Of a stretch of 64,000 bases of DNA, positions 1 to 4,399 are shown piece after piece. How positions within the stretch are numbered: position 1 is the first letter of the stretch; the number at the start of each line of letters is the position of its first letter. A program made the position numbers. The stretch is taken from NCBI RefSeq assembly GCF_988243305.1, contig NZ_OZ547136.1; one strand, 5' to 3'.

Positions 1-3000
1 AGTCTTGCGCCGCATTGATTAGTGCGTATGATAGCGTCACTGGAGTTGCGCTCTTACCCTTATAGCCATTAACCCCAGGAATCCGCACATGCGTATTGAA
101 GAAGATCTGAAGTTAGGTTTTAAAGACGTTCTCATCCGCCCTAAACGCTCCACTCTTAAAAGCCGTTCCGATGTTGAACTGGAACGTCAATTCACCTTCA
201 AACATTCAGGTCAGAGCTGGTCCGGCGTGCCGATTATCGCCGCAAATATGGACACCGTAGGCACATTTTCTATGGCCTCTGCGCTGGCTTCTTTTGATAT
301 TTTGACTGCTGTGCATAAACACTATTCTGTCGAAGAGTGGCAAGCGTTTATCAACAATTCTTCCGCTGATGTGCTGAAACATGTGATGGTTTCTACCGGC
401 ACGTCTGATGCGGATTTCGAAAAAACTAAACAGATTCTCGACCTGAACCCGGCATTAAACTTCGTTTGTATTGATGTGGCGAATGGTTATTCCGAACACT
501 TCGTGCAGTTCGTTGCGAAAGCGCGTGAAGCGTGGCCGACCAAAACCATTTGTGCTGGCAACGTAGTGACTGGTGAAATGTGTGAGGAGCTTATCCTCTC
601 CGGTGCTGATATCGTTAAAGTTGGCATTGGCCCAGGTTCTGTTTGTACAACTCGCGTCAAAACAGGCGTCGGTTATCCGCAGCTTTCTGCGGTAATCGAA
701 TGTGCCGATGCGGCGCACGGTCTGGGCGGAATGATCGTCAGCGACGGTGGCTGTACCACGCCGGGCGATGTCGCGAAAGCCTTTGGCGGCGGTGCCGATT
801 TCGTCATGCTTGGCGGCATGCTGGCGGGCCACGAAGAGAGCGGCGGTCGCATCGTTGAGGAGAACGGCGAGAAATTTATGCTGTTCTACGGCATGAGCTC
901 CGAGTCTGCGATGAAACGTCACGTTGGCGGCGTTGCGGAATATCGCGCAGCAGAAGGTAAAACCGTTAAGCTGCCGCTGCGAGGCCCGGTTGAAAATACC
1001 GCGCGTGATATTTTGGGCGGCCTGCGTTCAGCTTGTACATACGTTGGGGCTTCACGCCTGAAAGAGCTGACCAAGCGCACCACGTTTATTCGTGTGCTGG
1101 AACAAGAAAACCGCATCTTCAACAACCTGTAATCTCCCAACGCTGGCGTGGAGCAACACGCCAGCGTTATCCCATTCCACTCATCGCATCGCCTAAATGG
1201 AAAATGGGCAGATACATTGCCACCACCAGCGTACCGATAATTCCTCCCGTTATGATCAGCAACGCCGGTTCCAGTAAGGCTGCGAGGTTATCCGCCAGCG
1301 CCAGTGTGTTATCCCGATGATGATGGGCGAGGTTGTCTAACATGAGATCCAGCGAGCCGGATGCCTCTCCTGTTCTCACTAATTGCAAACAGAGTGGGCT
1401 AAACTCACCGGCATTTTTTAGCGCCAGCCAGATGGGTTGACCGTTACTGATATCGTGCTGGATTTGTGTCAGAAGTTGCACCCAGTACGGGCAGCGCATT
1501 GTTTCTCTGACGCTCTCTACGCCCTGTAAAAAAGTAATGCCTGCACTTTGTGTCAGCGCCAGAATCGTAAAGATCTGTGTGAGTTTTTGTCCCCGCATCA
1601 GTGAACCCATAATCGGGATGCGTAACAGCAATTTCTGCCGTGCGATAAGCCTGGTTGGGTGGCGCATCAGCAGCTTATTGGCTATCGCCAGCAGAAAGCC
1701 GAATAGCACCAGCAACCAACCCCATTCGCCACTAAAGCTTGCCAGCGTCATGATCCCCTGCGTTAGCGCCGGTAGCGGAGTGTTAAAGGTCTTATAGATA
1801 GCGGCAAACTCCGGTAGAACAAAATGCAGCATTGCCACAACCACCATGATTGCCATCGCTAAAATGATAATGGGATAACGTAACGCTGATTTCACTTTGT
1901 CGGTCAACTGACGCTGGGCTTTTTGCTGACGCGCCAGTTCAAAGCAGCATTCATCCAGCTTACCGGTCAGTTCACCCGTGCGGATCATCGCCTGATAGAG
2001 CGGCGGAAATACCTCTGACCAGGGTAATAAGGCATTGGAAAAGGCAACGCCCTGTTCAAGATCGTGCGCCAGCGATTGCAGCAACGCTTGCCATTGCTTA
2101 CTGGGATGCTGTTCCGCCAGCAGTGCCAGCCCTTCAGAAAGCGTTAACCCGGCTTTGAGTAGCGTCGCCAGTTGATGAATGACTTCCGCGCTTTTATCTC
2201 CTCGCCACTGCGCAGAATTGATGGCGATTCGCTTCAGGCTAAGTGGGGTAACCATCTGTTGCTGTAGTGCTATGAGCAGCAAAGCACGGCTCTCAGCCCA
2301 TAGCATCCCATCTTGCGCATTGCCGTCGCCGGTTATGCCATGCCAGCGCCAGAGTTGCTTACTCGCCATGCGGCATCCCCAATACGCGGATTAACTCTTC
2401 AAAGGTGGTTAAGCCTTGCTCCACGGCCAGGCAGCCGTTTTCAAAAAGCGTACGCATACCCGCCTGTCGGGCGTGTGTTTCCAGCGATTCAACGTCGGTA
2501 TTAGCGGAAATAAGCTGGCGTATGATCGGTGTTATGGGTAGAACTTCAAATAAGGCCGTACGACCATAAAAACCGTGGTAGCAGTGTCTACAACCAGGGG
2601 CTTGCCAGCGGGGCAGCGGCGACGGCCATACATTGTCTGGAATATGGATTGGCTCCCCTTGCTGTCGGCGACAATGTGGGCAAAGTTTGCGTACCAGACG
2701 CTGGGCTATTACCAGCGTAAGCGCTGATGAGAGCATCCAGCGAGCAACGCCCATTTGCTGTAAACGCACCAGCGTTTCGCAGGTGGAGTTGGTGTGTAGG
2801 GTAGACAACACCAGGTGACCGGTTTGCGCCGCTTTAATAGCGATCTCTGCTGTTTCGCCATCGCGGATCTCTCCGATCATAATGACGTCAGGGTCCTGGC
2901 GCAATAACGCACGCAAAACGCCCTGAAAGGTAAGACCGGCACGCGGATGGATTTGCGTCTGGTTTAGTCCGGCTATGGGGATCTCAACCGGATCTTCGAC

Positions 3001-4399
3001 GCTACAAATATTAATATCAGCAGTATTCAGCGTTTGCAGGGCACTATAAAGCGTGACCGTTTTGCCGCTGCCTGTAGGGCCTGTTACCAGCACCAGTCCC
3101 TGTGGTTGTTGCAAGGCATGAGCAAAGTCCGCCAGTTGTAACGGCTGCATTCCAAGCGTGTTGACATCCAGTGCCTGACTCACCTGCTGTAACAACCTTA
3201 ATACCACCTTTTCACCACCCCGACATGGTAAGGTCGCGATACGAAATGAGACGGCGTTTCCTGCCAGTTCGACAGTGAATTGCCCGTCCTGCGGCAGGCG
3301 ATGTTCCGCAATATCCAGGTTCCCCAGCACTTTTAATCTGGCGGTTAATGCGACTCCGGCATCCGGTGAAACATCCGGTAAAGGATGCAATACGCCGTCG
3401 ATACGCAAGCGTATGCGGTAGGCATTGTCCGCTGGTTCGATATGAATATCAGACGCGCGTTGTTCCAGCGCAGATTGTAACGTTCGAGTCAGCAACTCTG
3501 CTTTGGGCTGATGCTTCTCATGAATAGCTACGGGCAATGTCTGTTGTGTGCGACTGGCGTGACCTTCCATTTGTTGGCGCGTCCAGCAGGTGATCTCAAT
3601 ACGTTTGGTGGTAGCGAAATGCAATGCGTCCAGTAGCTCATGCGAAGGTGCATCGACTACCGCAACATGAACCACCTCTTCGCTGGCATCCAGCAAGACT
3701 CCCTGATAACGCAGACACAGGGCGGTGAGCTGTGGAATATTCATTGCCGCTCCTTAGTTTGCGTCATCAAAGCGAAAGACATCTTCGCAGGCTTGCTGCA
3801 ATGCGCTGTCACTTTGAATATTGCAGTTGCGCGTCCAACCGGTGACGCCGTTTGCGTTATCCCAACCCGGCGTCATGACGACGCTTAGCCCATTGAGACT
3901 TTCTTGCCCGGTCAGCGACACCACGCCCTTTGCCACACTCATGGCTGAAACATAGCGGGTGGTGGTAGGCGAGGGGATGCCATTACTGCCACCGTCGCAG
4001 GTATCTAATCCACCATGTTCCAGCGCGCACAACTCTACGGCGGTACGGTAAGGCACAAAGGTTTGTAGCATGTCGGTGAGTGCGGCTTTGCGCAGGTAGT
4101 TTTGATAAGCGGGAATACCAATGGCGCTTAAAATGGCAATGATGCCAATAACCACCATCAGTTCGATAAGTGTAAAACCGCGTTGCTTGTCCATTTGTTT
4201 CGCTCCTTGATTTGGTTGGCGCTACTTTGGCAAACGCCATCAGCACAAGCGAGGGGCAAAAAACGAAACGGGAAAGCAGCTTCCGGAGTTTTTTATTACG
4301 TTGCAGCGAAAGACAAGAAATTTGCGAGGCGTTACGAAGAAAGTTGGGAAAGGGGAGATTATCCGCCCGCGATGGAGCGGATAAATCTGTCAGCAATCA

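What the first reader, a model, noticed from the sequence alone, without database searches (positions are those of the whole stretch)
1167..4194. Intact-looking ppdD-hofB-hofC type IV pilus operon
All three reading frames are full length, with a canonical prepilin leader in PpdD, Walker motifs in HofB and an 11-nt hofB/hofC overlap. This operon is cryptic under laboratory conditions in E. coli but implicated in DNA uptake and use of DNA as nutrient; nothing here suggests pseudogenisation.
Basis: partly seen in the sequence, partly recalled or inferred. Interest (0 to 1): 0.25.

Follow-up and report, generated by a model that had tools for sequence, protein, structure and literature searches.

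The report
Intact E. coli ppdD-hofB-hofC pilus operon
This is the ordinary, well-studied E. coli gene trio for a type IV pilus (pilin, assembly motor, membrane platform); it is fully intact here, as it is in almost every E. coli genome, so the finding is correct but not new.

Summary
Three minus-strand genes sit at the stated coordinates: ppdD 4194..3754, hofB 3744..2359 and hofC 2369..1167. They have the same lengths as in K-12 (146, 461 and 400 aa). The prepilin leader (MDKQRG|FTLIE), the Walker A/B, Asp and His boxes, the two CxxC motifs and the 11-nt hofB/hofC overlap are all present.

PpdD is 100% identical to K-12 PpdD and differs by one residue from the EHEC pilin of PDB 6GV9. The locus is in 5,424 of 5,426 complete E. 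coli genomes. The order nadC-ppdD-hofB-hofC, convergent with guaC, holds across Enterobacterales, and dN/dS is 0-0.13, so the genes are kept by selection rather than decaying.

The published Sxy-dependent CRP-S site lies 136 bp upstream of ppdD (4341..4320). It is identical in K-12 and conserved in position in 17 of 21 intergenic regions (window included).

No prepilin peptidase gene is in the operon or the window. Across the species, hofMNOPQ and ppdAB-ygdB-ppdC are core, while gspO (58%) and pppA (67%) are variable.

Verdict: already known, low interest.

One side observation may be undescribed. TGYAA units occur at fixed offsets (+4/5 and +14/15) after the CRP-S site in 6 of 9 Sxy-regulon promoters.

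The parts
3754..4194 (-). ppdD: major type IVa prepilin, 146 aa. Six-residue leader MDKQRG, then mature N-terminus FTLIELMVV; four Cys at positions 56, 66, 124 and 136.
   Evidence: ORF. Pfam N_methyl E=2.5e-10. NCBIfam equivalog PRK10574 scores 269 bits against a cut-off of 138. 100% aa identity to K-12. One residue differs from PDB 6GV9 and 6GMS.
2359..3744 (-). hofB: pilus-assembly ATPase of the PilB/GspE superfamily, 461 aa, with Walker A, Asp box, Walker B, His box and two CxxC motifs.
   Evidence: Pfam T2SSE E=2e-146. NCBIfam PRK10436 scores 822 bits against 617. Motifs. Residues 79-454 align to solved PilB structures at about residues 195-577.
1167..2369 (-). hofC: PilC/GspF-type inner-membrane platform protein, 400 aa, with two T2SSF domains and three hydrophobic regions (about 167-185, 212-235, 355-395).
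   Evidence: Pfam T2SSF E=9e-57, two stretches. NCBIfam PRK10573 scores 655 bits against 401. Hydropathy. Matches PilC of PDB 3JC8 at E=7e-44.
2359..2369 (-). 11-nt overlap between the hofB stop and the hofC start (ATGGCGAGTAA), implying translational coupling.
4320..4341 (-). CRP-S (Sxy-dependent CRP) site TTCTTCGTAACGCCTCGCAAAT, centred 136 bp upstream of the ppdD ATG. One strong half-site (TCGCA, the complement of TGCGA) and one weak half-site.
   Evidence: It is the only match with 2 or fewer mismatches in the intergenic region. It is identical in K-12 and lies inside the fragment that Cameron & Redfield showed to bind CRP; their primers map to window 4278-4408. Position is conserved in 17 of 21 intergenic regions (window included), against a mean of 0.1 in shuffles.
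4300..4316 (-). TTGTCT-TTCG-CTGCAAC: a -35-like hexamer (+4..+9 after the CRP-S 22-mer) followed by the strongly conserved CTGCAAC block (+14..+20).
   Evidence: T, G, A and A of cTGcAA are invariant or nearly so in 19 aligned promoters. The same offsets occur in ppdA, hofM, ybaV, dprA and gntX.
4290..4295 (-). TAAAAA: an A/T-rich, -10-like hexamer at +25..+30 after the CRP-S site; the candidate -10 element.
   Evidence: A/T content is 87% at +25..+30 across nine Sxy-regulon promoters. The hexamer is conserved across species. No transcription start data were available, so this assignment is inferred.
4203..4208 (-). ppdD ribosome-binding site AAGGAG.
   Evidence: Nearly invariant in alignment A1.
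1139..1168 (.). Perfect 12-bp GC-rich inverted repeat between the convergent guaC and hofC stop codons. Probably a shared 3'-end hairpin; there is no U-tract on either strand.
   Evidence: Folding energy is -23.9 kcal/mol (+ strand) and -23.2 kcal/mol (- strand), with z = -5.7 and -5.2 and 0 of 200 shuffles as stable.

Best explanation
This is the intact chromosomal ppdD-hofB-hofC operon, the core of the E. coli type IVa pilus (T4aP) system. PpdD is the major prepilin. HofB is the cytoplasmic hexameric ATPase that powers pilin polymerisation. HofC is the inner-membrane platform the ATPase acts on.

The three genes are transcribed together from the 202-bp nadC-ppdD spacer and are translationally coupled: a 9-nt gap carries a ribosome-binding site that overlaps the ppdD stop, and hofB and hofC overlap by 11 nt. 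Transcription is normally almost off. It is switched on when cAMP-CRP together with the co-activator Sxy binds the weak, asymmetric CRP-S site 136 bp upstream of ppdD.

Assembly also needs genes elsewhere in the genome: hofMNOPQ (alignment complex and secretin), ppdAB-ygdB-ppdC (minor pilins) and a prepilin peptidase borrowed from a type II secretion locus (gspO or pppA). The resulting fibre or pseudopilus serves DNA uptake and, in some pathotypes, adhesion.

Shown here: gene integrity, motifs, family membership, purifying selection, synteny and conservation of the CRP-S site. Taken from the literature: Sxy/CRP induction, pilin processing and hofQ-dependent uptake. Inferred: co-transcription, the exact promoter elements, and function in this particular strain.
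For: ORFs and motifs are. Family assignments are above curated cut-offs. PpdD equals K-12 PpdD and differs by one residue from the EHEC pilus structure 6GV9. HofB and HofC match solved PilB and PilC.

The locus is in 5,424 of 5,426 complete E. coli genomes, with at least 80% coverage in 5,423. dN/dS is 0.00, 0.07 and 0.13 against K-12 and 0.04-0.09 against E. albertii. Synteny is conserved in about 25 Enterobacterales loci.

The CRP-S site is identical to K-12's, lies inside the published CRP-binding fragment, and is conserved in position. hofMNOPQ and ppdAB-ygdB-ppdC are each in 5,425 of 5,426 genomes.

Literature: 90-fold Sxy- and CRP-dependent induction of ppdD (PMC1635313); processed PpdD made on sxy induction and hofQ-dependent DNA uptake (PMC3330819); the asymmetric CRP-S mechanism (PMC6728893); EHEC HCP pili, and K-12 surface PpdD when hcpABC is expressed (PMC2649431, PMC2920817).
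Against: Nothing in the sequence argues against it. The limits are these. Expression and function cannot be read from DNA. The peptidase and the other clusters cannot be checked for this strain, because only 64 kb are available. gspO (3,159 of 5,426) and pppA (3,640 of 5,426) are accessory, so some strains could lack a processing enzyme. HofB scores below the curated cut-offs of the canonical PilB (487 against 676) and GspE (457 against 630) equivalog models, and aligns to solved PilB chains only from residue ~79 onward (chain residue ~195), so the PilB N-terminal region is largely absent. A hofC knockout in DH5alpha did not change artificial transformation (PMC12844161), which is uninformative for natural uptake.
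Confidence: 0.96

Rival explanations
1. The operon's main selected role is to build an adhesive or virulence pilus, the 'haemorrhagic coli pilus' HcpA-B-C, rather than a DNA-uptake machine. This is the same machine with a different primary use.
For: PpdD here differs by one residue from the EHEC pilin that forms long pili. EHEC HCP mediates adherence and cytokine induction (PMC2920817). A hofQ mutant of UPEC is defective in kidney colonisation (PMC2649431).
Against: The promoter carries the competence-type CRP-S site, conserved across Enterobacterales including non-pathogens. The pilin is unusually conserved (92% identity to Citrobacter, against 77% for HofB and 68% for HofC in that locus), unlike surface adhesins under immune pressure. 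No pili were seen in UPEC or in 72 ECOR strains under laboratory conditions (PMC2649431, PMC3330819). The two roles are not mutually exclusive.
Confidence: 0.25
2. The operon is a silent evolutionary relic. It looks intact but has no function and will eventually decay.
For: No natural inducing condition is known. Transcripts and pilin are undetectable in standard culture (PMC1635313, PMC3330819).
Against: dN/dS is far below 1 for all three genes at every evolutionary distance tested; ppdD has 6 synonymous and 0 non-synonymous changes against K-12. Full-length conservation holds in 5,423 of 5,426 genomes. Gene order and the regulatory site are kept from Escherichia to Yersinia and Serratia. Sxy induction gives processed pilin and hofQ-dependent uptake (PMC3330819).
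Confidence: 0.03
3. HofB and HofC belong to a type II secretion system, as the RefSeq product name 'type II secretion system protein GspE' suggests.
For: PGAP names the HofB ortholog GspE. HofB matches T2SS GspE structures almost as well as it matches PilB.
Against: The T2SS GspE and GspF equivalog models score below their cut-offs: 457 against 630, and 263 against 424. The genes lie directly behind a major type IVa pilin rather than a gspC-M cluster, and are syntenic with pilA-pilB-pilC(-pilD) in outgroups. The true T2SS loci lie elsewhere in K-12.
Confidence: 0.02

Closest known systems
E. coli K-12 ppdD-hofB-hofC (b0108-b0106)
   Same: Same position between nadC and guaC, same gene lengths and same overlaps. 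PpdD is 100% identical, HofB 98.3% and HofC 97.3%. The CRP-S 22-mer is identical.
   Different: 95 nucleotide substitutions across the three genes: 6 in ppdD, 48 in hofB and 41 in hofC. There are 19 amino-acid changes in HofB and HofC, none in a catalytic motif. The nearest complete genomes are TUM1886, Ch1 and ETEC1738 at 99.9%.
EHEC O157:H7 hcpA-hcpB-hcpC (haemorrhagic coli pilus; PDB 6GV9 and 6GMS)
   Same: The mature pilin is identical except at one position, T here against A in the structure. It is the same operon.
   Different: In EHEC the pili have been seen and linked to adherence. Nothing in the sequence says whether this strain expresses them.
pilA-pilB-pilC-pilD operons of Pasteurellaceae, Legionella, Pseudomonas-type T4aP and Gilliamella
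   Same: Same order of pilin, ATPase and platform, and the same protein families. In Haemophilus the regulation is also by CRP-S/Sxy (PMC1635313).
   Different: No prepilin peptidase gene follows hofC in any Enterobacterales locus examined, whereas the Legionella, Gilliamella and other outgroup loci do have one there. HofB aligns to PilB only from about residue 79 onward (chain residue ~195), so it lacks most of the PilB N-terminal region. No pilT retraction ATPase is linked.

Membership tests
Type IVa major pilin (PpdD family, NCBIfam PRK10574) | Short basic leader ending in Gly, then Phe+1 and Glu+5 (the class III signal, GFxxxE) | tested here: met
   MDKQRG|FTLIE. Pfam N_methyl E=2.5e-10. 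TIGR02532 scores 35.9 bits against a cut-off of 16.3.
Type IVa major pilin (PpdD family, NCBIfam PRK10574) | Whole-protein score above the curated equivalog cut-off | tested here: met
   269.3 bits against a cut-off of 138. 100% identical to K-12 PpdD.
Type IVa major pilin (PpdD family, NCBIfam PRK10574) | Globular head with disulfide-bonded Cys pairs, as in the solved pilus | tested here: met
   Cys at 56, 66, 124 and 136. 139 of 140 mature residues are identical to PDB 6GV9.
Type IVa major pilin (PpdD family, NCBIfam PRK10574) | Cleavage and N-methylation by a prepilin peptidase, followed by polymerisation | not testable with these tools
   No peptidase gene is in the window. Processing of the identical K-12 protein is reported in PMC3330819.
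PilB/GspE-superfamily assembly ATPase (HofB, NCBIfam PRK10436) | Walker A, Asp box, Walker B, His box and a tetracysteine motif | tested here: met
   All five were found at residues 222-229, 250-254, 280-295, 309-319, and 355-358 with 385-388.
PilB/GspE-superfamily assembly ATPase (HofB, NCBIfam PRK10436) | Score above the curated cut-off of the HofB-type equivalog | tested here: met
   822 bits against 617.
Canonical PilB (TIGR02538) or T2SS GspE (TIGR02533) | Score above the curated equivalog cut-off | tested here: not met
   PilB scores 487 against 676 and GspE scores 457 against 630. HofB works like PilB but forms a distinct, N-terminally shorter subfamily.
PilC/GspF platform protein (HofC, NCBIfam PRK10573) | Two T2SSF domains, hydrophobic membrane segments, and a score above the cut-off | tested here: met
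   Two T2SSF stretches, E=9e-57. 655 bits against 401. Hydrophobic regions at about 167-185, 212-235 and 355-395.
Sxy/CRP-S (competence) regulon | A CRP site with C at position 6 and/or G at position 17 (TGCGA-type core) and asymmetric half-sites, upstream of the operon | tested here: met
   TTCTTCGTAACGCCTCGCAAAT at 4341..4320. It is identical to K-12's within the CRP-binding fragment and conserved in 17 of 21 intergenic regions, window included.
Sxy/CRP-S (competence) regulon | Induction that depends on both Sxy and cAMP-CRP | not testable with these tools
   Shown for K-12 ppdD, with 90-fold induction (PMC1635313). Inferred here from promoter identity.
pilABCD-type operon | A prepilin peptidase gene (pilD) adjacent to pilC | tested here: not met
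   hofC is followed by convergent guaC. There is no GspO or PppA homolog in the window or in any Enterobacterales locus, but one is present in outgroups.

The most novel reading that the evidence does not exclude
E. coli Sxy-regulon promoters, ppdD included, may carry a second sequence determinant besides the CRP-S site. Two TGYAA(C) units lie 10 bp apart at fixed offsets (+4/5 and +14/15 after the 22-mer), followed by an A/T-rich hexamer at +25..30. If the inner CTGCAAC unit is not simply core-promoter sequence, it could be the long-sought DNA contact for Sxy, or for RNA polymerase in the CRP-Sxy complex. That would explain why these promoters are silent without Sxy. It would also place the CRP-S centre near -47.5, a spacing that fits neither Class I nor Class II.
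Probability: 0.25. Interest if true: 0.5.

Novelty: already known. Interest (0 to 1): 0.1.

Why it matters
For genome annotation it is a routine confirmation: the strain keeps an intact, selected type IV pilus core operon with its competence-type promoter. The biological question it touches remains open, namely when E. coli naturally switches on Sxy and what the pilus is for (DNA uptake, nutrition or adhesion). This locus adds no new handle on that question. The exception may be the conserved promoter blocks beyond the CRP-S site, which give concrete bases to mutate.

Tried and rejected
(1) A terminator-like hairpin at 4269-4285, between the CRP-S site and ppdD, was flagged by the pattern scan. 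I rejected it because its folding energy is no better than shuffles in this strain (z=+0.48; K-12 version z=-1.9).

(2) I tested for a conserved RNA structure or known RNA family in the ppdD leader. RNAalifold found 0 consensus pairs in 19 sequences. Rfam gave only one sub-threshold chance match, mir-4847 at 20 bits against a gathering score of 100.

(3) By eye, I compared the conserved blocks with sigma-54, sigma-32, sigma-E, PhoB-box and CpxR-box consensus sequences. None fitted in both sequence and spacing. These comparisons rest on remembered consensus sequences only.

(4) I could not obtain the exact published CRP-S coordinates. The supplement of PMC1635313 is not held, and Sinha 2009 and Palchevskiy & Finkel 2006 are not held. 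I therefore located the site by primer mapping and footprinting.

(5) I looked for a mapped start site to fix the promoter geometry. Nothing usable turned up in PMC6728893, PMC4299799 or PMC4595672.

(6) The generic sigma-70 scan found no convincing promoter in the ppdD upstream region, consistent with an activator-dependent promoter.

(7) I did not check the peptidase in the nearest genome (TUM1886), because locating it would have taken many blind annotation calls. Species-level counts are given instead.
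Full report
**Observation.** The window carries three consecutive minus-strand ORFs at exactly the coordinates given: ppdD 4194..3754 (146 aa), hofB 3744..2359 (461 aa) and hofC 2369..1167 (400 aa). They lie between nadC (5290..4397, minus) and convergent guaC (89..1132, plus).

None has an internal stop, and each has the same length as its K-12 counterpart b0108, b0107 or b0106. The named features are all there:
- the leader MDKQRG followed by FTLIE;
- Walker A GPTGSGKT;
- the Asp box;
- Walker B;
- the His box;
- two CxxC motifs.

The hofB stop and hofC start overlap by 11 nt (2359-2369). In addition, only 9 nt separate ppdD from hofB, and the hofB ribosome-binding site AAGGAG overlaps the ppdD stop codon.

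**Identity.** Pfam finds N_methyl and Pilin in PpdD, T2SSE (E=2e-146) plus a partial MshEN domain in HofB, and two T2SSF domains in HofC. NCBIfam places each protein in its own equivalog family well above the curated cut-off:
- PRK10574: 269 bits against 138.
- PRK10436: 822 against 617.
- PRK10573: 655 against 401.

The canonical PilB, GspE and GspF models all score below their cut-offs. So HofB and HofC work like PilB and PilC but form the enterobacterial subfamily. The RefSeq label 'GspE' for HofB is a naming artefact.

PpdD is 100% identical to K-12 PpdD (6 synonymous changes only). HofB has 8 and HofC 11 amino-acid differences, none in a catalytic motif. Mature PpdD differs at a single residue from the EHEC pilin whose filament (6GV9) and monomer (6GMS) structures are solved. 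HofB aligns from residue ~79 onward to PilB and GspE structures, so it lacks most of the long PilB N-terminal region. HofC matches PilC.

**Distribution and selection.** The 3.3-kb locus is found in 5,424 of 5,426 complete E. coli genomes, essentially full-length in 5,423. Only 136 records (each one genome here) are at least 99% identical, and the best are TUM1886, Ch1 and ETEC1738 at 99.9%.

A scan of one genome per species recovered the same order, nadC-ppdD-hofB-hofC convergent with guaC. It appears in Escherichia, Citrobacter, Enterobacter, Leclercia, Pseudocitrobacter, Siccibacter, Serratia, Yersinia, Brenneria and others. No peptidase gene follows hofC in any of them. Legionella, Gilliamella and other outgroup loci do have a pilD-like gene there.

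dN/dS is 0.00, 0.07 and 0.13 (ppdD, hofB, hofC) against K-12, and 0.04, 0.09 and 0.06 against E. albertii. For comparison, the housekeeping neighbours give 0.01-0.04. The operon is therefore under purifying selection, and 'cryptic' cannot mean decaying.

Unusually for a major pilin, PpdD is the best-conserved of the three proteins in every comparison. Against C. werkmanii, for example, it is 92% identical, where HofB is 77% and HofC 68%.

**Regulation.** Cameron & Redfield (PMC1635313) showed three things for K-12 ppdD: CRP binds weakly to a ppdD upstream fragment, Sxy induces ppdD 90-fold, and induction needs CRP and cAMP. Their primers map to window 4278-4408.

Within that fragment the only TGCGA-N6-TCGCA-like site is TTCTTCGTAACGCCTCGCAAAT at 4341..4320, centred 136 bp before the ATG and identical in K-12. 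It has one strong and one weak half-site, as described for E. coli CRP-S sites (PMC6728893).

In 17 of 21 intergenic regions (window included), a site with 2 or fewer mismatches lies with its centre at -130 to -140, although the spacers have diverged. Shuffled sequences give a mean of 0.1 and a maximum of 2. This is strong footprinting support.

The region between the site and the ATG has further conserved DNA blocks, but no conserved RNA structure and no Rfam match. The end of the operon is marked by a perfect 12-bp GC-rich hairpin shared with convergent guaC (1139-1168; -23.9 kcal/mol, z=-5.7).

**The rest of the machine.** The window contains no prepilin peptidase homolog. At species level:

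| Cluster | Complete genomes with a match |
|---|---|
| hofMNOPQ | 5,425 of 5,426 |
| ppdAB-ygdB-ppdC | 5,425 of 5,426 |
| gspO | 3,159 of 5,426 |
| pppA | 3,640 of 5,426 |

Both known peptidase genes ride on variable type II secretion loci. The pilus core is thus universal, while its processing enzyme is borrowed from accessory systems. Whether this strain has one cannot be told from 64 kb.

**Function.** Literature on the identical or near-identical K-12 and EHEC genes gives the following:
- Processed PpdD appears on sxy induction, and Sxy-dependent DNA uptake requires the secretin HofQ (PMC3330819).
- No PpdD was detected in 72 ECOR strains in ordinary culture (PMC3330819).
- EHEC makes PpdD pili (HCP) with adhesive and pro-inflammatory properties, and hcpABC expression in K-12 gives surface PpdD (PMC2920817, PMC2649431).
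- A hofQ mutant of UPEC colonises kidneys poorly (PMC2649431).

The direct evidence I could read for DNA uptake and DNA-as-nutrient concerns hofQ and hofMNOPQ, not ppdD, hofB or hofC. Their role is inferred from co-regulation and homology. A hofC knockout in DH5alpha left artificial transformation unchanged (PMC12844161), which does not bear on natural uptake.

**A side observation on the promoter.** The K-12 ppdA promoter shares the ppdD layout in register:
- a CRP-S 22-mer;
- a -35-like hexamer at +4..+9 (TTGCAA in ppdA, TTGTCT in ppdD);
- CTGCAAC at +14..+20;
- TAAATA or TAAAAA at +25..+30;
- CCGGAAG at about +34;
- CCCTCG exactly 31 nt further on.

I aligned nine Sxy-regulon promoters on their CRP-S sites: ppdD, ppdA, hofM, sxy, ybaV, ycaI, gntX, dprA and comM. 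The hofM site was placed by eye. All nine occurrences of TGYAA in the 64 nt downstream fall at +4/5 (4 promoters) or +14/15 (5 promoters), where about 1 occurrence is expected anywhere. In the seven promoters not used to spot the pattern, 3 of 7 carry it at each offset (P about 2e-6 each). A/T content peaks at 87% at +25..30. The +14/15 unit is as conserved as the CRP-S core across the ppdD promoters of Enterobacterales.

Søndberg et al. state that no conservation outside the CRP site has been described at E. coli CRP-S promoters (PMC6728893). The simplest reading is ordinary core-promoter sequence: a weak -35 at +4, a -10 at +25 and a short spacer. That would put the CRP-S centre near -47.5, which conflicts with the Class I-like spacing asserted in the literature. 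The alternative reading, with CTGCAA as the -35 element and the centre near -60, leaves no recognisable -10. I could not find mapped start sites to decide. The pattern is post hoc and rests on nine promoters.

**Verdict.** This is a textbook, already-characterised operon in its normal intact state, so interest is low. The only potentially new material is the promoter pattern described above.

Noticed in passing
window 4250-4316 (minus strand); K-12 loci L006 4179-4361, L005 3753-4050, L090, L092, L094: TGYAA(C) units occur at fixed offsets (+4/5 and +14/15) after the CRP-S 22-mer in 6 of 9 E. coli Sxy-regulon promoters, followed by an A/T-rich hexamer at +25..30. ppdD and ppdA additionally share CCGGAAG and CCCTCG blocks at identical 31-nt spacing. 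A 2019 paper says no conservation outside the CRP site has been described at these promoters.
   Followed up: partly
window 8284-11073 (ORFs 8722-10503 + and 10503-10799 +): A 2.8-kb island lies between aroP and pdhR and is absent from the closest genome (TUM1886). It encodes an Hcp (T6SS tube) protein fused to S-type pyocin and colicin/pyocin DNase domains, plus a colicin/pyocin immunity protein, i.e. an orphan Hcp 'extended toxin' effector-immunity pair. It is full-length in 1,053 of 5,426 E. coli genomes; some genomes carry extra immunity genes.
   Followed up: partly
species-level, K-12 loci L007 1544-2221 and L008 2044-2853: Both prepilin peptidase genes that could process PpdD are accessory in E. 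coli: gspO in 58% and pppA in 67% of complete genomes. The pilus structural clusters are in more than 99.9%. The number of genomes lacking both was not determined.
   Followed up: partly
window 1167-4194 compared with loci L009-L039: The major pilin PpdD is more conserved across Enterobacterales than its own assembly ATPase and platform protein (for example 92%, 77% and 68% identity to C. werkmanii). This is the reverse of what is usual for surface pilins.
   Followed up: partly
window 1139-1168: A perfect 12-bp GC-rich inverted repeat sits exactly between the convergent guaC and hofC stop codons and overlaps the hofC stop. It is very stable (-24 kcal/mol, z=-5.7) but has no U-tract on either strand.
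   Followed up: partly
window ~44153-44160 and 57121-57671: Relative to TUM1886, the window lacks an IS1414 insertion in the yad chaperone-usher fimbrial operon, and it has a divergent fhuA segment that megablast does not align. Identity to TUM1886 drops from 99.9% at the pilus operon to 96.8-98.9% elsewhere, suggesting a recombination mosaic.
   Followed up: no
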